64,000 nucleotides of DNA, taken from Escherichia phage vB_EcoA_4HA11. Each line of letters begins with the position of its first letter. The stretch's first letter is position 1. The stretch is taken from the sequence record MN445184. The stretch is one strand, 5' to 3'. Positions 6,538 through 14,188 of the stretch are shown here, piece by piece. A model generated the notes under the pieces. It ran no database searches and was not told the origin of the DNA. It worked only from the letters and a program-made list of their open reading frames with translations. The position numbers and the translations under genes were made by a program.

Positions 6538-7038
6538 ATGAAATCCATGGTCAAACGTAAAGTCGAAATCTCCCTGACTGCCCATATTGAAATGGTCCAA
6601 CAACTTATCCTGGATGCGTATGAAATCCAGAAAGATCGCCAATCGAGGGGAGGTGTGACGGACCCCACCTGTCCTGGAAACATACTGTACTATCGCATGC
6701 TGCGCCAGACTGGGCACACCGCCGCGCTGAAGAAGATTCTGTCCTATGATTTCCAGACAGAGAACAACCTCAACATCATGGGTGTCTTCCATAGCGTTAG
6801 TGAACGCGATTCTTTCTTCCGCTCCCGAGCAGGCGCGGATGTATCATTGCCCGATGTAGACAAGAAACAGCACACGACAACCATCTCCCATTACATGGGC
6901 ACGGGCATCGATAAAGCAAATATCATCGTGTTCTCTGATACGTTGCATGACCCCAAGCGCCTTGCATCTGCGCATGAAATGCTGCGGGAAGGTCGCAGCG
7001 CCCTCACTAATTTGACTTTAGTAGTGTTTCTGGGCTAG
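6538..7038 (+). CDS. hypothetical protein
   Basis: 166-aa ORF. Confidence 0.5.
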   Translation: MKSMVKRKVEISLTAHIEMVQQLILDAYEIQKDRQSRGGVTDPTCPGNILYYRMLRQTGHTAALKKILSYDFQTENNLNIMGVFHSVSERDSFFRSRAGADVSLPDVDKKQHTTTISHYMGTGIDKANIIVFSDTLHDPKRLASAHEMLREGRSALTNLTLVVFLG

Positions 7039-7308: not shown

Positions 7309-7812
7309 TTGAGAAACTACATCATGATGCTGTTAATGAACGTTCCACAGAACAAGATGACCCCTGCAACAGAGGGTAAGAATCACTTCAACATCTACAG
7401 CCGGAGCCAGACGGAACTCGGGCGCTTCCTCTCGCATTTTACCCATCATCCAATGACTACCCATGAACATGGTGTGTTTAACTCCATGGAGGGGTACTGG
7501 TATTGGCTGAAGTATAGGGATGACAACCTGCGCCTGCTCGACGGTTATGAGGCCAAGCAATATGGACAGAGGTTGGCGGCCACTCGCATCGCTGTCATTG
7601 ATCCATCATCCGAAGAATTCAAGCGCGATATCCTATTTGCAACTAGCATGAAACTCCAGACAATGCCTGAACGTCTGAAGATCAGATTGGCTTACAGTCG
7701 CCTACCCCTGATCCATGCATATGTTCAGAACGGGAAATACAGTTTTCAAAACTCTATGGACTATATCATTGCCCACATTAATCGTCTCCGCATACAAGGA
7801 ACTTTGAAATGA
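7309..7812 (+). CDS. hypothetical protein
   Basis: 167-aa ORF; start may be a few codons downstream. Confidence 0.45.
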   Translation: MRNYIMMLLMNVPQNKMTPATEGKNHFNIYSRSQTELGRFLSHFTHHPMTTHEHGVFNSMEGYWYWLKYRDDNLRLLDGYEAKQYGQRLAATRIAVIDPSSEEFKRDILFATSMKLQTMPERLKIRLAYSRLPLIHAYVQNGKYSFQNSMDYIIAHINRLRIQGTLK

Positions 7813-8390
7813 AATTTCTACATACTATCGTCGACACTTCTTATGACTGCACTGCTCATACCCCAGACCGTTCGCCTGTGTTTGTTCTGAACAAACTAGG
7901 TGAAGAGATCTGTGAACTGTCTGATGTGTTTCATGGTATAGTATCTTCCGAGCCGTTGAATGGCGAAGTTGCTGATGTCATTATCTCTGCTATTGACCTT
8001 CTGTACATTATGGATTTCAATGACCAGCAGCTGCATGGTTGCATGACCAAAGAAGAGTTGGCCGACTCAGTCCAGACATGTTTGGCATTGTGCAGCGATT
8101 GTTCTCCCGAATATCTTGAAGAAGATTGGTTCCGTCTGATCGATCGTGATCCCCAGAAGCACCTGAACCTCATCCATCATTATCACGGCCGGATTATCCG
8201 ATTGTGTAATCAGCCATATCGCAGCCAAGACGTCCTAGAGCGACTCGTTGCCAATTTGATCAAACATGTCGCACGGATGGCTTGCGGTGAAGGTGCCTTA
8301 CACAGCGTGAACATGTTGAGCACACGCATCAAAGTAGAGCACGCCATTGAACACAAAGTTGAAAAGTGGCGTACTAAATTTGGCTTATGA
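7809..8390 (+). CDS. hypothetical protein; weak resemblance to all-alpha (MazG-like) NTP pyrophosphatase
   Basis: 193-aa ORF; LNKLGEEICELSDV..EVADVIISAIDLLY pattern; low-confidence family guess. Confidence 0.4.
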   Translation: MKFLHTIVDTSYDCTAHTPDRSPVFVLNKLGEEICELSDVFHGIVSSEPLNGEVADVIISAIDLLYIMDFNDQQLHGCMTKEELADSVQTCLALCSDCSPEYLEEDWFRLIDRDPQKHLNLIHHYHGRIIRLCNQPYRSQDVLERLVANLIKHVARMACGEGALHSVNMLSTRIKVEHAIEHKVEKWRTKFGL

Positions 8391-8565
8391 AATACGAAAT
8401 CATCTTAGACGCTCTCTGTATGAGAGCAATATTGTTTAATGTTGAAAGAAACCGGGTTAAGCTCTGTGTGTTCTAAGGCCACAGCTCAAACTTGTATATC
8501 TAAATTTCAGGAATGTTGGATACCAAAAGAAGATCCCGCCTGGTTGAAATTTTACGGAGATAATA

Positions 8566-10467
8566 ATGGTTGATGTAAACAGAAAATACAAAAAGCTCTC
8601 ACACATCGAGCATATACTCCTTCGCCCAGAGCGCCATCTGGGGAGTATCCGTTCTTCTGTCGGCATGGCTTGGGTATATGATCCCAGCAAAGACAAAGTT
8701 GTGTTTAAAGACAATTTTGAATATAACCCCGCCCTTATCAAACAGTTTGATGAAATCATCACCAACTGTGTTGACCACAGCAAGACCCCTGAGGGAAAAT
8801 CCCTGACGGAAATCACCATTACCATCTGCCCTATGAACGGACAGATCATCGTGGCGGATAACGGGGGTATTCCTGTGGTAAAACATGAATCTGGTATGTG
8901 GTTGCCAGAAATGTTATTTTCAGAATTGTTTGCGGGATCAAACTTCAACGACGATGACGAAGAATACAACAACCAGAAGTCCGGCGGCCAGAACGGTGAA
9001 GGGGCGTCCCTCGTCAACGTGTTCTCAAAATGGTTCCGCGTCGCGACCAGTGATGGCAAGAAGTCTTATGCTCAGCTGTTTGAAGACAACATGAGCAAGA
9101 AGTCCAATCCGGTCATCAGCAATACGCCGAAAGAGTTCGGCACCACGATTGCCTGGATCCCTGATTATGCTCGTCTGGGTGTCAAGGGGCTTGACCAGAA
9201 CAACCTGCTGATGATCTATCGCCGCGCGTTTGAAGTGGCTGCGTGTAATCCGCGCCTGAAGATTGTTCTCAACGGGAAGCAAATCCGGATTGACCGCTTT
9301 GGTCACTTCGTTGATTACTTCCATGCTGGCTCGGCTGTTGACGAAACCGGGGATTGGTCTGTTGCTGTAGCCCCTTCATCCGGTACGTTCATGCACGCAT
9401 CATACGTGAACTCTATTGCCACCCACATCGGTGGTCCTCACGTTGATTATGTTGCCGACCAGATCGTGGCAGCGATTCGTCCTCAGCTGGTGAAGAAGTT
9501 CAAGACCGAACTGAAGCCAGCAATGATCAAGAACCACATGTCCTTGTTCATCGCCGCCGACATCAACAACCCGCGCTTTGACAGCCAGACCAAGGAGCGC
9601 ATGACCACTCCTGTCAGCCAGTTCGGTACGTCGTACAAGCCCAGCGATAAACTGATCCGCAAGGCGCTTGAGTTCGTTACGGCTGGTCTGAGCAAAGAAC
9701 TGGCTTCCCTGCGCAATGAGCAGGATGGTGCTGAGTTTGAAAAGGCCAAGAAGGACATCAGCAAGCGGGATTATCGTGAGATTGAGAAGTATTACCCGGC
9801 GACCGCCCGTGGTGACCGCAGCGGATGCTCCCTGCTACTGACAGAGGGTGATAGTGCCTCCAATCCTATCCTGAACGCCCGCGACACCAAGAAGATCGGG
9901 TTGTTCCCGCTTCGTGGTAAGTTCATCAACTGCCTGAACGCCCCGCGCTCAAAGGTGATGAACAATGAAGAGTTCAAGAACCTGTGTACGATCCACGGCG
10001 GCGCAGTGCCAGGCCAGCCCCTTGATATCACCCGTTACCCACAGACTGTTGTGGCTACCGATGCGGACGATGACGGCATCCACATCCGTGGGTTGTTGAT
10101 CACCCTGTATTGCACCTACTGGCCGGAGTACGTCCGTCAGGGCAGGCTGAAGCTCCTGCGCACCCCTTACATGCGTGTGTGGTGTGGTAAGGTGATGCAT
10201 GAGTTCATGAACAACGCAGAGTATGAGGAGTTCCTGAAGACGCCTGATGCCAAGAAGATCACGAAGAAGAAATATCTGAAAGGTCTGGGTGGTAACAGCA
10301 CTGAAGACTTCAAGCGTATTCTAAACAACCTAGATGCGTATACTACGACGGTCACGCTGGACGATGGCTATCAACAGTCACTGAAGAATGGCTTCGGTGA
10401 TGAGGCCGCCGATTACCGCAAAACCTGGTTTAGCGATGTTTGTCTATTTGAAACCGAGGATGAATGA
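8566..10467 (+). CDS. DNA topoisomerase II large (ATPase, GyrB-like) subunit, gp39/gp60-like
   Basis: 633-aa ORF; N-terminus LSHIEHILLRPERHLGS, GHKL motif ADNGGIPV, TOPRIM-like EGDSA. Confidence 0.85.
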   Translation: MVDVNRKYKKLSHIEHILLRPERHLGSIRSSVGMAWVYDPSKDKVVFKDNFEYNPALIKQFDEIITNCVDHSKTPEGKSLTEITITICPMNGQIIVADNGGIPVVKHESGMWLPEMLFSELFAGSNFNDDDEEYNNQKSGGQNGEGASLVNVFSKWFRVATSDGKKSYAQLFEDNMSKKSNPVISNTPKEFGTTIAWIPDYARLGVKGLDQNNLLMIYRRAFEVAACNPRLKIVLNGKQIRIDRFGHFVDYFHAGSAVDETGDWSVAVAPSSGTFMHASYVNSIATHIGGPHVDYVADQIVAAIRPQLVKKFKTELKPAMIKNHMSLFIAADINNPRFDSQTKERMTTPVSQFGTSYKPSDKLIRKALEFVTAGLSKELASLRNEQDGAEFEKAKKDISKRDYREIEKYYPATARGDRSGCSLLLTEGDSASNPILNARDTKKIGLFPLRGKFINCLNAPRSKVMNNEEFKNLCTIHGGAVPGQPLDITRYPQTVVATDADDDGIHIRGLLITLYCTYWPEYVRQGRLKLLRTPYMRVWCGKVMHEFMNNAEYEEFLKTPDAKKITKKKYLKGLGGNSTEDFKRILNNLDAYTTTVTLDDGYQQSLKNGFGDEAADYRKTWFSDVCLFETEDE

Positions 10468-10910
10468 TGGAATATCCACTAACTCATCAGATGCAGCCAA
10501 CAAAAGACACGTGTATGTCAACGTGCCTGGCGATGTTACTTGAGCGTCCGGTCGCCGAGGTTGCTGAAATATGGCATGAAAGTTTCGCGAATTGGGAAAC
10601 CACGATTGGTGACGTTCTTTGTATGGAAGGGGTTCCGTTCTTGCAAGGGAAAGGGGTCAACCAAACTTCCACCATCTATCATGATTATGTTTATCTGCTT
10701 TGCGTGCCAAGTCCAGCAACGCCAGGATTATTGCACCAGATCATCTTAGACACTCGTCATGAAAAACTTGTTGTGTACGACCCACTGAAGGGTACTGGCA
10801 AAAGATATTACACCCTGGATGAAGACAAATCTCCTCTGGCGGTAAAACTTGAAACTTGGATTGTGGACTACATTGTCGATCCATATGAAGTGGGAGGTTA
10901 TCGTGGGTAA
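10464..10910 (+). CDS. papain-like (peptidase C39-like) cysteine peptidase domain protein
   Basis: 148-aa ORF overlapping both topo genes by 4 nt and 1 nt; HQMQPTKDTCMSTCLAMLL (Gln..Cys) and HQIILDTRHEKLVVYDP (His..Asp) resemble C39 catalytic motifs. Confidence 0.4.
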   Translation: MMEYPLTHQMQPTKDTCMSTCLAMLLERPVAEVAEIWHESFANWETTIGDVLCMEGVPFLQGKGVNQTSTIYHDYVYLLCVPSPATPGLLHQIILDTRHEKLVVYDPLKGTGKRYYTLDEDKSPLAVKLETWIVDYIVDPYEVGGYRG

Positions 10911-10911
10911 G

Positions 10912-12243
10912 ATGGTTGCCAAGAGCATTACTGTAACGGACTTTGTCAACACTGACCATAAGCAGTTTTCTGTGGTCAACAGCATCCGTCAAATCCCTCA
11001 GCTGATTGACAGCCTGAAGCCAAGCCAGCGCAAGATACTCTTCGCTGCTCTTGAATACAACAAGGAGGAGATTGTTGACCGCCTTGGCATGTTCGCCGCC
11101 GCTCGCACCAACTACAAGTCTGGTGGTGAGAACATGAGCGGCACTATCGTGAACATGGCTCAGGGGTTCCCAGGAACGAACAACATCCCGTACTTTGACC
11201 GCGATGGCCAGTTTGGTTCTATCATGGGGCGTGATGCTTCATCTGCCCGATACATATCCGTCGCTGTATCTGACGTTATCCGCAAGATCTTCCGCAAGGA
11301 GGATGAGGGTATCTTGGAATACAACTACCTTGGTGAAGAAAGGCTGGAGCCGAAGTTCTTTCTGCCCATCCTGCCCATGTTCCTGGTGAATGGGATCAAT
11401 GGTATCGGCACCGGATATTCCACCGACACCCCGTGTCATTGCGTTAAGTCCGTGCTCAGTGCCCTGAGAGCGCTTCTCCGTGGCGAAGATCCGAAAGACT
11501 TAAAACCGTACTGGAACGGCTTCAAAGGAGAGACAGGCTATACTGAGGAAGGAAGAGCATACAGTCGCGGCATCTTCCGTCGCGTCAATGCCACCACCCT
11601 GCATATCACCGAAGTCCCAGTGGGTTGGTTCGCCAAAACCTATGAGACCAAGGTGTTGCTACCTCTGTATAAGGCAGGTATCCTGACCGAGTACGCCAAC
11701 GACACGACGGAAGATGGCTGGGATATCACGGTTGTGTTTAAGCGCGGCGAACTCTCTAAGCTGAGTGACGAGCAGGTTGAGCAGATGTTCAAGCTGTATT
11801 CAGCCACCAAGCCTGTGTGGACAGCATGGGATGAAGACGGTGTTATTCATCGTTATTCTGGTTGGCGGGATATGTTGCTGCCGTTCTTCAATTATCGCCT
11901 GTCACGGTACGAAGACCGTCGCCAGTATCTGTTGAAGGACATGGCAGACAGAATTCGTAAGCTGAACAATCGTGCCCTGTTTATTGCATGGGCTGTGGTG
12001 ACTGACCTACGACGCAGTCTTGATGAGCTGAAGGCATTGTTCCAAACAGACTACCCAGACTTTGATGGTGACCTTGACGAGTTGTTCAAGATGCCTCTGT
12101 CGTCTATTACTCTGGACGCCCGTGAGCGCCTACTGAAGCAGATTGAGAACCTTGAAGCACAGCACAAGGAATTAAGTAAGAAAGAGGACATCGATCTTTA
12201 CACTGAAGACCTTGATGACCTTGAAAAGGCTCTTGGCCTATAA
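10912..12243 (+). CDS. DNA topoisomerase II medium (GyrA-like) subunit, gp52-like
   Basis: SLKPSQRKILFAAL and FDRDGQFGSIMGRDASSARYI resemble gp52/GyrA motifs; start ATG 10912 (or GTG 10903). Confidence 0.8.
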   Translation: MVAKSITVTDFVNTDHKQFSVVNSIRQIPQLIDSLKPSQRKILFAALEYNKEEIVDRLGMFAAARTNYKSGGENMSGTIVNMAQGFPGTNNIPYFDRDGQFGSIMGRDASSARYISVAVSDVIRKIFRKEDEGILEYNYLGEERLEPKFFLPILPMFLVNGINGIGTGYSTDTPCHCVKSVLSALRALLRGEDPKDLKPYWNGFKGETGYTEEGRAYSRGIFRRVNATTLHITEVPVGWFAKTYETKVLLPLYKAGILTEYANDTTEDGWDITVVFKRGELSKLSDEQVEQMFKLYSATKPVWTAWDEDGVIHRYSGWRDMLLPFFNYRLSRYEDRRQYLLKDMADRIRKLNNRALFIAWAVVTDLRRSLDELKALFQTDYPDFDGDLDELFKMPLSSITLDARERLLKQIENLEAQHKELSKKEDIDLYTEDLDDLEKALGL

Positions 12244-12567: not shown

Positions 12568-12885
12568 TTGATCATGCCACAGCTTCTGAGTCCTAAACTT
12601 CTGTCTATGGGTGATTCCCTGTATTTTCACTGCCCTGGATGTGATATACTTCACCCATATCGCATTAAGGGCGAAGTCCAAGGTCCGGCGTGGTCGTGGA
12701 ACAACAATGTCGTTGCTCCTACGTTCACGCCGAGCCTGCTGGTGAATGCATCTGATCTAGCATCACGTTGCCATCTGTTCCTGACCGACGGCAAAATACA
12801 ATTCCTCGGCGACTGTTTCCATGATCTGAAGAACCAGACAGTGGATATGGTCGACATCTCTGAACCTGAAATTTGGATTGAATAG
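12568..12885 (+). CDS. small Cys/His-containing protein (zinc-binding?)
   Basis: 105-aa ORF with HCPGC and CH/H pairs. Confidence 0.45.
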   Translation: MIMPQLLSPKLLSMGDSLYFHCPGCDILHPYRIKGEVQGPAWSWNNNVVAPTFTPSLLVNASDLASRCHLFLTDGKIQFLGDCFHDLKNQTVDMVDISEPEIWIE

Positions 12886-12888
12886 ATT

Positions 12889-13299
12889 ATGAAATTACTT
12901 GGATATTTTCGTGAACTCCCAACGGGAACTGAAGGCAAGTTGTTCTCACAGGTGAAGGGGGATGACATCGGTGATACGATGATTCCCCTGTACACTCGTG
13001 AACTTCCTGCCGAAGGTGCCTGGGAGCGCCGTGTGGTCGCTGCCGCCAACAAATATGGTGACGTGATCGTCGTTGCCGACCGCCACCATAGCAAATTCAT
13101 GAACAGCCAGCTCAAGATCCTGAAAGAAGCAGGCGTCATTAAATCCACCCATACCCGCGAACAGGGTTTCATCGACAACCAGGGCAACTTCCTCACTCGT
13201 GAAGAGGCATGCATCGTAGCCCGTGAAGCTGGACAGATCAATCAGGTGCGCCTGAAGACAACCCCTTTCCGCGAACTCTTTTCCGAAGACCTCTATTGA
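12889..13299 (+). CDS. hypothetical protein
   Basis: 136-aa ORF, 4 nt after previous stop. Confidence 0.5.
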   Translation: MKLLGYFRELPTGTEGKLFSQVKGDDIGDTMIPLYTRELPAEGAWERRVVAAANKYGDVIVVADRHHSKFMNSQLKILKEAGVIKSTHTREQGFIDNQGNFLTREEACIVAREAGQINQVRLKTTPFRELFSEDLY

Positions 13300-13349: not shown

Positions 13350-13592
13350 ATGAGCCCAGAATTTGAAAACCTGTTCGAGCGATGCTTCGAACCAGGTTCT
13401 GTGTCCGGTTACATGGACCGCCTTTGCACTGCCATTGTAATACGCCTTGCTGCCAAGGGTATCGTTGTCAACACCATTATCCGCAATGGGAACAACTTTA
13501 TCATGCAGATGACTGATTATCACCGCCGCACAGGCATCATCCAGGTGTCATGTGTTGACAACAGCATTATTGAATGGAGACAGTACGCATGA
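13350..13592 (+). CDS. hypothetical protein
   Basis: 80-aa ORF. Confidence 0.4.
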   Translation: MSPEFENLFERCFEPGSVSGYMDRLCTAIVIRLAAKGIVVNTIIRNGNNFIMQMTDYHRRTGIIQVSCVDNSIIEWRQYA

Positions 13593-14188
13593 CAACCTAT
13601 GTAATCAATGGCGGCGATTTACTGAAAGCCGCCTGTAGTTTCAATCTGATCGACATCTTTGCCCACGGTGCCAACTGTTGGTCTACCATGGGCGCGGGTA
13701 TTGCCCTGCACATCGGCAACAACTTCCCAGCGCTGCGCGAAGTCGATGCGAACGACCCTCGTGGTCCAGAGCAACGCCTGGGTGGCATGTCCTATGCATT
13801 TGACCACAGCACTGGTGTCTGGGGTGCGAACCTCTACACTCAGTTTTATCCAGGTCCGAACGCTCGCATGCCGTCTGTCATCAGTTCTGTTCAGATGTTG
13901 TTTGAGCAGGTTCACGAAATTGTGGAAGCAACTAAAGACGAAACTGTCTATGTCGGACTGCCTGCTATCGGCTGTGGTATTGGTGGTCTGAACCTCTACA
14001 GTGTAGTGCGCCATATCAATCGAATCTCTGAAAGCGTGTATGAAGAGACCCGCCGTCGTGTCGTCCCAGTCTTCTATATCAGGGAAGGAGACGGATTCGA
14101 TGATGATCTGATGGAACTTTCCCATCTGGACACAGAAGGTATCATGATTGTCGAAGATGAGCAAGAAATCATCGACGAGGAGGGGTGA
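13589..14188 (+). CDS. macro domain protein (ADP-ribose binding/hydrolase fold)
   Basis: ATG 13589 with GGAGA RBS; motifs AHGANCWSTMGAGIALHI and GLPAIGCGIGGL match macro-domain glycine-rich loops; acidic C-tail. Confidence 0.55.
   Translation: MTTYVINGGDLLKAACSFNLIDIFAHGANCWSTMGAGIALHIGNNFPALREVDANDPRGPEQRLGGMSYAFDHSTGVWGANLYTQFYPGPNARMPSVISSVQMLFEQVHEIVEATKDETVYVGLPAIGCGIGGLNLYSVVRHINRISESVYEETRRRVVPVFYIREGDGFDDDLMELSHLDTEGIMIVEDEQEIIDEEG

What the first reader, a model, noticed from the sequence alone, without database searches (positions are those of the whole stretch)
10464..10910. Papain/C39-like cysteine peptidase gene between the two topoisomerase II subunit genes
The 148-aa ORF overlaps the large-subunit stop and abuts the medium-subunit start. 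It shows a Gln..Cys (QPTKDTCMSTCLAMLL) and a His..Asp (HQIILDTRHEKLVVYDP) arrangement typical of C39-type peptidases, with no export or bacteriocin context. In T4 this interval holds mobile or unusual elements (gene 60 bypass, homing endonucleases), so an inserted accessory gene here is plausible; its target is unknown.
Basis: partly seen in the sequence, partly recalled or inferred. Interest (0 to 1): 0.45.

Follow-up and report, generated by a model that had tools for sequence, protein, structure and literature searches.

The report
Phage C39-like cysteine peptidase cassette
A small gene between the two topoisomerase genes of this Salmonella/E. coli-type phage very probably encodes a stand-alone cysteine protease from a large, uncharacterised phage family, carried as a swappable accessory cassette whose target is still unknown.

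Summary
ORF 10464-10910 (+; more likely start 10467) overlaps the stop of the topo II large-subunit gene. It ends 1 nt before the medium-subunit ATG (10912).

The C39-like reading is supported:
- Across 90 homologues, Gln11, Cys17, His91 and Asp106-Pro107 are essentially invariant.
- The AlphaFold2 model is confident (pLDDT 90).

It is nevertheless a divergent family. It is PHROG 4049 (unknown function), falls below Pfam C39 thresholds, and is always stand-alone (about 140 aa). It has at least 1,091 50%-identity clusters, in phages and prophages of Gammaproteobacteria.

It is an accessory cassette. Only 38 of 282 Ackermannviridae carry it in this slot, and most have the two topoisomerase genes abutting. 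Its synonymous divergence and GC3 disagree with its flanks.

The target is unknown. I infer a cytoplasmic protease acting on a host protein during the replication phase. One lead comes from the C39-like toxins Cpe1 and StbD-CT, which cleave GyrB/ParE. The phage enzyme might disable host topoisomerases in the same way, but profile and fold comparisons give no specific link (about 12%).

The parts
8566..10467 (+). Topoisomerase II large subunit gene (T4 gp39+gp60-like, GyrB-like), 633 aa. Its ATP-lid motif reads LFAGSNFNDD where GyrB has HAGGK.
   Evidence: Pfam HATPase_c, DNA_gyraseB, Toprim and TOPRIM_C. 94% aa identity to Maynard gp39-like. Motif located at residue ~122.
10456..10460 (+). GAGGA Shine-Dalgarno-like sequence, 6 nt upstream of ATG 10467. 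In phages with an empty site, the same GAGGA serves the medium-subunit gene.
   Evidence: Sequence and junction comparison with PH4, SFP10 and Vi01.
10464..10910 (+). Stand-alone C39-like (clan CA) cysteine peptidase gene, 148 aa (147 aa if it starts at 10467). PHROG 4049.
10494..10496 (+). Codon of Gln11, the predicted oxyanion-hole residue.
   Evidence: Present in 88/88 full-length homologues. Aligns with the Gln of the Cpe1 'KQ...C' motif.
10512..10526 (+). Codons of Cys17 (predicted nucleophile, at the N-terminus of helix 17-26) through Cys21, forming the CxxxCLAM motif.
   Evidence: Cys17 in 87/88 and Cys21 in 90/90 homologues. Helix boundaries from the model.
10734..10736 (+). Codon of His91, the predicted general base, in strand 90-96.
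   Evidence: Present in 90/90 homologues. Strand from the model.
10779..10784 (+). Codons of Asp106-Pro107, the third triad residue within the DPxxG motif.
   Evidence: Present in 90/90 homologues. The same motif occurs in Cpe1 and PeiR.
10908..10917 (+). TAAGATGGTT. This is the right cassette junction and is identical to the core of the empty site (GAATAAGATGGTTGC) in phages lacking the ORF. The same string forms the left junction in phage Maynard.
10912..12243 (+). Topoisomerase II medium subunit gene (T4 gp52-like, GyrA-like), 443 aa.
   Evidence: Pfam DNA_topoisoIV, E = 1.3e-66. 90% aa identity to Maynard.

Best explanation
Shown. The ORF encodes a soluble, cytoplasmic, stand-alone cysteine peptidase of the papain-like clan. 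Its fold, catalytic-residue order (Gln11, Cys17, His91, Asp106) and local motifs (CxxxCLAM, H-x-[IV]-[IV], DPxxG) are those of C39 double-glycine peptidases. It belongs to a large, phage-restricted and uncharacterised family (PHROG 4049). In Ackermannviridae the gene is an optional cassette sitting exactly between the topo II subunit genes. It uses the ribosome-binding site that otherwise serves the medium-subunit gene. Its history differs from that of its flanks, so it has been exchanged horizontally by recombination through the conserved topoisomerase genes.

Inferred. The gene has overlapping or abutting stop and start codons on both sides. No promoter- or terminator-like site separates it from its neighbours on the + strand. 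It is therefore co-transcribed, and probably translationally coupled, with the replication-phase topoisomerase genes. The enzyme then acts inside the infected cell, most likely as a site-specific endopeptidase or isopeptidase that cuts next to small residues (Gly-Gly type). Its substrate would be a host protein, serving host takeover or counter-defence. On this reading its position in the topoisomerase operon reflects a permissive insertion hotspot, not a functional tie to the phage topoisomerase.
For: Fold and active site.
- AF2 model: pLDDT 90.2, pTM 0.87. Cys17 sits at a helix N-terminus, His91 on a beta-strand, and Asp106 just after the next strand.
- Conservation of Q11, C17, C21, H91, D106, P107 and G110.
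- Sub-threshold but consistent C39 and C39_2 hits.
- Two family members are named 'Peptidase C39 domain-containing protein' by UniRef. One phage record is annotated as a papain-like protease.

Family size and stand-alone architecture..

Cassette behaviour.
- 38 of 282 records are occupied.
- The indel boundaries are exact.
- Other occupants of the same slot: an AP2-domain ORF in Limestonevirus and a signal-peptide ORF in Serratia phage Kevin.
- Against Se-J, ORF dS is 0.39 while the flanks give 1.19 and 0.97. Against Maynard, ORF synonymous sites are saturated (pS 0.79) while the flanks give dS 0.69 and 1.18.
- GC3 is 0.45 in the ORF against 0.61-0.64 in the flanks.

Purifying selection. dN/dS is about 0.17.

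Expression context.
- Overlapping stop and start codons.
- No + strand promoter-like site, and only two weak + strand terminator-like hairpins, both inside the topoisomerase coding sequences (8890-8909, 11836-11854). None lies at the ORF boundaries.
- Elsewhere the homologues sit in early or replication-recombination modules: RecT/Dam/int in prophages, overlapping a helicase gene, and among small early genes.
Against: - No biochemical data exist for any family member.
- No Pfam, NCBIfam or PADLOC model is matched above threshold.
- No conserved neighbour, substrate gene or inhibitor gene was found that would point to a target.
- A catalogue of 268 phage anti-defence proteins mentions no protease. 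A counter-defence role would therefore have no precedent.
- I could not inspect the model's coordinates to measure Cys-His distances.
Confidence: 0.6

Rival explanations
1. Host-topoisomerase killer. Like the C39-like toxins Cpe1 (T6SS) and StbD-CT (CDI), the phage peptidase would cleave the ATP-lid HAGGK motif of host GyrB and ParE. The phage's own topo II, encoded on either side of the gene, has a different motif (FAGSN) and would take over DNA topology. The cassette would then be functionally tied to the topoisomerase operon.
For: - Cpe1 and StbD-CT are C39-fold peptidases shown to cleave GyrB/ParE between Gly101 and Gly102 (PMC12136450; bioRxiv 10.64898/2026.05.07.723447).
- The only PDB sequences the family profile touches are Cpe1 (9l5u, E = 0.42) and PeiR. 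In the Cpe1 alignment Gln, Cys, His and Asp-Pro all line up.
- The gene sits between, and is translationally linked to, the phage topo II genes.
- The phage large subunit has LFAGSNF where GyrB has HAGGK.
- Phages lacking their own topoisomerase are known to inhibit host gyrase (Gip, Igy; PMC10886550).
- Several homologues lie in replication modules.
Against: - hhalign of the phage family against a Cpe1-family alignment gives only 24% probability over 28 columns.
- The E = 0.42 profile hit is not significant.
- Most family members are in phages with no topo II of their own. CAjan was checked by tblastn, and lambdoid prophages are another case.
- 86% of Ackermannviridae have the same topo II operon without the peptidase.
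- The FAGSN motif is, from my own knowledge, the general T4/eukaryote-type motif and not an adaptation. A single G102S change did not block StbD cleavage.
- There is no delivery domain and no immunity gene.
Confidence: 0.12
2. Maturation protease for a phage protein or peptide. It would remove a double-glycine-type leader or propeptide from a phage-encoded substrate, as transporter-linked C39 domains do for bacteriocins.
For: The closest structural relatives (PCAT1, ComA, LahT) are leader-peptide processing enzymes. In one metagenomic phage the gene lies between the lysis and terminase genes.
Against: - No conserved neighbouring small ORF or substrate candidate appears across contexts.
- The gene is dispensable in 244 of 282 Ackermannviridae with otherwise near-identical gene content.
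- Its contexts are mostly early or replication genes, not morphogenesis genes.
Confidence: 0.1
3. A papain-fold enzyme that is not a protease. It could be an acyl- or acetyl-transferase, a deamidase, a transglutaminase, or an amidase acting on a small molecule (for example a glutathione or phytochelatin-synthase-like activity). It could also be a catalytically silent binding module like the C39-like domain of HlyB.
Against: - The Gln-x5-Cys oxyanion-hole arrangement and the CxxxCLAM and DPxxG motifs are those of C39 peptidases.
- Invariant catalytic residues argue against a silent binding domain.
Confidence: 0.12

Closest known systems
Peptidase family C39: double-glycine leader peptidase domains of AMS/PCAT ABC transporters (PCAT1, ComA, LahT)
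   Same: - Same order and spacing of Gln, Cys, His and Asp. Here Cys-to-His is 74 residues and His-to-Asp is 15. In StbD-CT (Cys183, His258, Asp275) the spacings are 75 and 17.
- Shared CxxxC-L-A-M and DPxxG motifs.
- Domain size of about 140 aa.
   Different: - Not fused to, or near, an ABC transporter or a bacteriocin gene.
- Phage-encoded and cytoplasmic.
- Below the Pfam PF03412 and PF13529 gathering scores.
- The Gly that follows the catalytic Cys in C39 ('CG') is Met, Val, Ile or Ala here.
- Only about 13-15% identity.
Cpe1 (E. coli T6SS) and StbD-CT (Citrobacter CdiA-like): C39-like toxins that cleave GyrB/ParE
   Same: - C39-like fold and triad.
- They act in the bacterial cytoplasm on a host protein, not on a leader peptide.
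- The family profile's best (non-significant) PDB sequence hit is Cpe1.
- The phage gene is embedded in a type II topoisomerase operon.
   Different: - No PAAR, Rhs or CdiA carrier, no entry domain and no adjacent immunity gene.
- hhalign probability is only 24%.
- Structural match is weaker than to the transporter domains.
- Cpe1-family proteins pass Pfam C39 models, and the phage family does not.
- The target here is untested.
PHROG 4049 (phage protein family of unknown function)
   Same: The ORF is a full-length member: E = 1.4e-51, residues 5-142 on profile positions 2-142 of 145.
   Different: Nothing differs. The family simply has no assigned function.
Pseudomurein endoisopeptidase PeiR/PeiW (C71)
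   Different: PeiR is a cell-wall lytic enzyme of archaeal viruses with extra binding repeats. The phage ORF has no wall-binding or export signal.
Mobile or optional genes in phage topoisomerase loci (T4 mobA/gene 60 cassette; homing endonucleases)
   Same: The slot between the topo II genes is polymorphic. It can be empty, hold this peptidase, hold an AP2-domain (homing-endonuclease-like) ORF, or hold a signal-peptide ORF. HNH genes also lie just upstream of the large-subunit gene in relatives.
   Different: The peptidase has no nuclease domain, so it is a passenger that probably spreads by flanking homology and not by homing. From my own knowledge, T4's cassette interrupts the large-subunit gene itself.

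Membership tests
Peptidase C39 (MEROPS C39 / Pfam PF03412, PF13529; clan CA) | Papain-like alpha+beta fold, with the nucleophile Cys at the N-terminus of a helix and His and Asp on adjacent beta-strands | tested here: met
   [not shown]
Peptidase C39 (MEROPS C39 / Pfam PF03412, PF13529; clan CA) | Catalytic Gln...Cys...His...Asp in that order, conserved across homologues | tested here: met
   Q11 in 88/88, C17 in 87/88, H91 in 90/90, D106 in 90/90.
Peptidase C39 (MEROPS C39 / Pfam PF03412, PF13529; clan CA) | Score above the curated Pfam gathering threshold | tested here: not met
   PF13529 scores 13.4 bits against a cut-off of 24, E = 0.11. Only 12 of 90 members touch PF03412, with a best E of 0.0028.
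Peptidase C39 (MEROPS C39 / Pfam PF03412, PF13529; clan CA) | N-terminal domain of, or genetic linkage to, an ABC exporter and a double-glycine leader substrate | tested here: not met
   Stand-alone proteins of 135-160 aa throughout. Neighbours are topoisomerase, replication or small early genes.
Peptidase C39 (MEROPS C39 / Pfam PF03412, PF13529; clan CA) | Cleavage after a Gly-Gly (or Gly-Ala, Gly-Ser) motif | not testable with these tools
   Needs enzymology.
Cpe1/StbD-CT topoisomerase-cleaving toxins | Specific sequence or profile relatedness to the Cpe1/StbD peptidase domain | tested here: not met
   [not shown]
Cpe1/StbD-CT topoisomerase-cleaving toxins | Fusion to a delivery domain (PAAR, VgrG, Rhs or CdiA) and an adjacent immunity gene | tested here: not met
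   No N-terminal extension. The flanking genes are the topo II subunits.
Cpe1/StbD-CT topoisomerase-cleaving toxins | Cleaves GyrB/ParE at HAGGK | not testable with these tools
   Needs in vivo or in vitro cleavage assays.
PHROG 4049 | Full-length match to the family profile | tested here: met
   E = 1.4e-51, 175 bits, covering profile positions 2-142 of 145.
Homing endonuclease / self-mobile element | Encodes a nuclease domain (HNH, GIY-YIG, LAGLIDADG) that could drive its own spread | tested here: not met
   The only domain signal is C39-like. The fold is papain-like throughout.

The most novel reading that the evidence does not exclude
The cassette is a phage 'replace-the-host-enzyme' module. 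The C39-like peptidase would proteolytically inactivate the host type II topoisomerases (GyrB/ParE) in the way the interbacterial toxins Cpe1 and StbD-CT do. The co-translated phage topo II, which carries FAGSN instead of HAGGK in its ATP lid, would be spared. This would be the first proteolytic host-takeover or anti-host enzyme of this kind described in a phage, and it would represent a family of more than 1,000 sequence clusters.
Probability: 0.12. Interest if true: 0.8.

Novelty: new variant of a known kind. Interest (0 to 1): 0.45.

Why it matters
Phage-encoded, non-structural cytoplasmic proteases are almost unexplored. A current catalogue of 268 anti-defence proteins contains none.

This family is large, with at least 1,091 clusters at 50% identity. 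It is spread over lytic and temperate phages of Gammaproteobacteria. It has an intact active site, evolves fast, and is exchanged as a cassette. Those features fit a gene engaged in host-phage conflict.

Identifying its substrate would define a new class of phage effector. The recent finding that C39-like toxins cleave GyrB/ParE gives a cheap and sharp first experiment. If that fails, substrate discovery by N-terminomics is straightforward, because natural isogenic-like phages with and without the gene exist.

Tried and rejected
Family and structure searches that added nothing.
- Pfam, NCBIfam and PADLOC scans of the ORF and several homologues gave nothing above threshold.
- The profile search of PDB sequences gave only non-significant hits, Cpe1 at E = 0.42 and PeiR at E = 1.3.
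- The BFVD search returned only uncharacterised phage proteins.
- The afdb50 fold library was not available.

Test of a specific Cpe1 link. hhalign against a Cpe1-family alignment gave 24% probability, so a specific relationship is rejected as unsupported.

Clues from architecture and neighbours.
- Longer family members were scanned for informative fusions. Only Zn-ribbon or YunG-like tails turned up, probably fused neighbouring genes.
- A search for a conserved neighbour across 12 contexts found none.

Literature. Searches for phage C39 or papain-like proteases in Ackermannviridae, or acting in anti-defence, found no relevant paper.

Ideas considered and rejected.
- A homing endonuclease or self-mobile element: there is no nuclease domain.
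- A spurious ORF or an opposite-strand gene: rejected by the strong conservation on the + strand.
- A requirement of the peptidase for processing the phage topoisomerase: 244 of 282 relatives have the same topoisomerase genes without it.
Full report
**1. What is there**

The window is from an Ackermannviridae phage. Its closest record is Escherichia phage AV101, at 93% nt identity over the topoisomerase region and 97.8% over the junction. Shigella phage Ag3 is at 91.6%.

The layout is as follows:
- ORF 10464..10910 (+) lies between a 633-aa GyrB-like topo II large-subunit gene (8566..10467) and a 443-aa GyrA-like medium-subunit gene (10912..12243).
- The ORF's ATG overlaps the upstream TGA.
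- Its TAA is one base from the downstream ATG.

The functional start is probably the second ATG at 10467. The GAGGA at 10456-10460 lies 6 nt upstream of it, and the Se-J orthologue begins MEYPL.

No + strand promoter-like site lies between the genes. The only + strand terminator-like hairpins in the stretch are weak ones inside the topoisomerase coding sequences (8890-8909, 11836-11854). The three genes are therefore most simply one transcription and translation unit. That last step is inference.

**2. It is a real, conserved gene**

- It matches PHROG 4049 (unknown function) at E = 1.4e-51.
- tblastn finds it in 178 phage records: Ackermannviridae, Queuovirinae (CAjan, 9g, JenP1), Samunavirus, Mydovirus, and many Vibrio, Pseudomonas and Erwinia phages.
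- A profile search of 1.84 billion cluster representatives finds 1,091 at E <= 1e-3. Almost all are stand-alone proteins of 135-160 aa.
- Against the Se-J orthologue, dN is 0.067 and dS is 0.39, a ratio of about 0.17.

**3. What the protein is**

Conservation in a 90-sequence alignment:
- Gln11 in 88/88. The two missing sequences are N-terminally truncated gene calls.
- Cys17 in 87/88 (one Ser).
- Cys21, His91, Asp106, Pro107 and Gly110 in 90/90.

Structure. AlphaFold2 with this alignment gives pLDDT 90.2 and pTM 0.87. Cys17 sits at the N-terminus of helix 17-26, His91 on strand 90-96, and Asp106 just after strand 103-105. That is the papain-like arrangement.

Comparison with solved structures:
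- Next come pseudomurein endoisopeptidase PeiR (8.6), a 'C39-like peptidase' 3erv (8.4) and Alr0975 (8.1).
- The StbD-CT toxin scores 7.5-7.7, and Josephin, UfSP and AvrPphB about 6.5-7.
- Foldseek agrees.

The motifs Q-x5-C-x3-C-L-A-M and H-x-[IV]-[IV]...D-P-x-x-G are those of C39 enzymes. They align residue for residue with Cpe1 in the one HMM alignment obtained.

At the sequence level the family lies outside the curated models:
- PF13529 scores 13.4 bits against a cut-off of 24.
- Only 12 of 90 members touch PF03412.
- NCBIfam and PADLOC give nothing.

The protein is therefore a divergent, stand-alone, C39-like clan-CA cysteine peptidase with a complete catalytic set. It has no signal peptide, no transporter and no bacteriocin context.

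**4. The gene is an optional, horizontally exchanged cassette**

Of 282 Ackermannviridae records that contain the topoisomerase junction, only 38 carry the ORF. These are Agtrevirus-like phages and a Kuttervirus subset such as Maynard, Marshall, SeSz-1 and Se-J. Most of the rest have the two topoisomerase genes abutting.

Junction sequences:
- Empty sites read GAATAAGATGGTTGC in PH4, SFP10 and Vi01.
- The window's right junction (10908-10917) and Maynard's left junction both keep the TAAGATGGTT core.
- The indel is therefore exact. It could arise by recombination between a 10-bp repeat.

The slot also holds other genes in other phages:
- A 190-aa AP2-domain ORF, homing-endonuclease-like, in Dickeya Limestonevirus.
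- A 132-aa signal-peptide ORF in Serratia phage Kevin.

The ORF's history disagrees with that of its flanks:

| Comparison | ORF dS | Flank dS | ORF aa identity | Flank aa identity |
|---|---|---|---|---|
| Window vs Se-J | 0.39 | 1.19 / 0.97 | 89% | 91% / 89% |
| Window vs Maynard | saturated (pS 0.79) | 0.69 / 1.18 | 62% | 94% / 90% |

- Se-J and Maynard are both Kuttervirus, yet their ORFs share only 59.5% aa identity.
- GC3 is 0.45 in the ORF against 0.61-0.64 in the flanks.

At least three deep alleles (window/Se-J, CRW-SP2, Maynard) therefore circulate through the same slot. This fits exchange by homologous recombination through the conserved topoisomerase genes.

**5. Context elsewhere**

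- In Queuovirinae, Samunavirus and Mydovirus the homologue lies among small early genes.
- In Citrobacter and Serratia lambdoid prophages it sits in the early-left operon, between RecT/Dam methyltransferase and xis/int.
- In metagenomic phages it overlaps the stop of a helicase gene, lies near a clamp-loader-like gene, or lies between the lysis and terminase genes.
- No neighbour is conserved across these contexts.
- CAjan has no topo II gene. The link to topoisomerase is therefore specific to Ackermannviridae.

**6. How it most likely works**

Shown: an intact C39-like active site, cytoplasmic location, co-organisation with replication-phase genes, rapid divergence, and cassette-like exchange.

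Inferred: it is an active endopeptidase or isopeptidase that cuts a specific host protein next to small residues during infection, for host takeover or counter-defence. On this reading the topoisomerase slot is simply a permissive hotspot. I put about 0.6 on this overall statement. The fold and active-site part alone I rate at about 0.9.

**7. The topoisomerase lead**

Two recent papers show that C39-like toxins cleave GyrB and ParE between Gly101 and Gly102 of the HAGGK ATP-lid motif:
- Cpe1, PLoS Biol 2025 (PMC12136450).
- StbD-CT, bioRxiv 10.64898/2026.05.07.723447.

A C39-like peptidase translationally coupled to a phage's own topo II genes invites the idea that it destroys the host enzymes while the phage enzyme is spared. 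The phage enzyme has LFAGSNF at that position. Phage inhibition of host gyrase has precedent in Gip and Igy (PMC10886550).

The specific tests do not support a special relationship:
- hhalign against a Cpe1-family alignment gives 24% probability over 28 columns.
- Most family members are in phages without a topo II of their own.
- 86% of Ackermannviridae lack the gene.

I keep this as the most novel reading that the evidence does not exclude, at about 0.12.

**8. Other rivals**

- Maturation of a phage protein or peptide (about 0.1). There is no conserved substrate gene, and the ORF is dispensable in close relatives.
- A non-proteolytic papain-fold activity or a silent binding domain (about 0.12). 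This is disfavoured by the Gln-Cys-His-Asp set, the C39-specific motifs and the peptidase-dominated structural neighbours.

**9. Novelty and verdict**

The C39-like nature of a few family members is already hinted at in public records. UniRef names two of them 'Peptidase C39 domain-containing protein', and one GenBank record reads 'papain-like cysteine protease'. No function is known, PHROGs lists the family as unknown, and I found no paper on it.

It is a new variant of a known kind: a stand-alone, phage-borne, cytoplasmic C39-like peptidase family. Interest is moderate at 0.45. This is a clean, testable candidate for a proteolytic phage effector, not an anomaly.

Noticed in passing
L003:2911-3483 (Dickeya phage XF4; also LIMEstone1, RC-2014): In Limestonevirus the same inter-subunit slot holds a different 190-aa ORF with a sub-threshold AP2 domain (E = 1.4e-6), typical of HNH/AP2 homing-endonuclease-like genes. 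This shows the slot is an insertion hotspot.
   Followed up: partly
L015:465-863 (Serratia phage Kevin, Miltonvirus): The slot holds a 132-aa ORF with a signal-peptide-like N-terminus (MKHLKTVIAVLALSSAYA). It is flanked by its own hairpin-containing intergenic regions, so it looks like a secreted or lipoprotein 'moron'.
   Followed up: no
L002:678-1508 (Escherichia phage PH4) versus window 8391-8565: Several close relatives (PH4, PC3, RPN242, Dickeya phages) carry an HNH homing endonuclease gene immediately upstream of, and overlapping, the large-subunit gene. The window has only a 175-bp spacer there.
   Followed up: no
window 8566-10467 and 10912-12243 versus 10464-10910: The topoisomerase genes have much higher GC3 (0.61-0.64) than the window average GC (0.46) and than the peptidase ORF (GC3 0.45). 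Some Kuttervirus topoisomerase flanks are about 94% identical in nt to this Agtrevirus-like window, while Vi01's are about 84%. Together these suggest mosaic exchange of the topoisomerase genes themselves.
   Followed up: partly
window 10893-10911: With the cassette present, the medium-subunit ATG (10912) has only a distant GGAGG, 13 nt upstream inside the peptidase ORF. Its original GAGGA now serves the peptidase. Medium-subunit translation may therefore depend on termination-reinitiation coupling to the peptidase ORF.
   Followed up: no
L004:4650-5114 (CAjan AJT60571) and L005:4786-5280 (ESCO3_00052): In both Queuovirinae genera a second gene, annotated 'putative protease' or 'proteasome subunit alpha type-2', lies two genes downstream of the C39-like homologue. 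A possible functional pairing was not examined.
   Followed up: no
L008:2698-4194, L009:7171-8667 (Citrobacter prophages): In lambdoid prophages the homologue overlaps the stop of a Dam-like D12 methyltransferase gene and is followed by an overlapping DUF4060 gene. Together they form a tight three-gene block next to xis/int.
   Followed up: no
window 12568-12885: The 105-aa ORF downstream of the topoisomerase genes matches DUF6527 (E = 1.4e-12). The other neighbours tested have no Pfam match: 6538-7038, 7309-7812, 7809-8390, 12889-13299 and 13574-14188. Relatives annotate the orthologues of two of these as MazG-like and macro-domain proteins.
   Followed up: partly
window 10880-10907 (C-terminal tail of the ORF): The low-confidence C-terminal tail ends ...EVGGYRG. 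It contains a Gly-Gly that is Gly-Ala, Gly-Ile or Gly-Val in other alleles. Cpe1 and StbD-CT auto-process at Gly-rich linkers, but self-cleavage was not assessed here.
   Followed up: no
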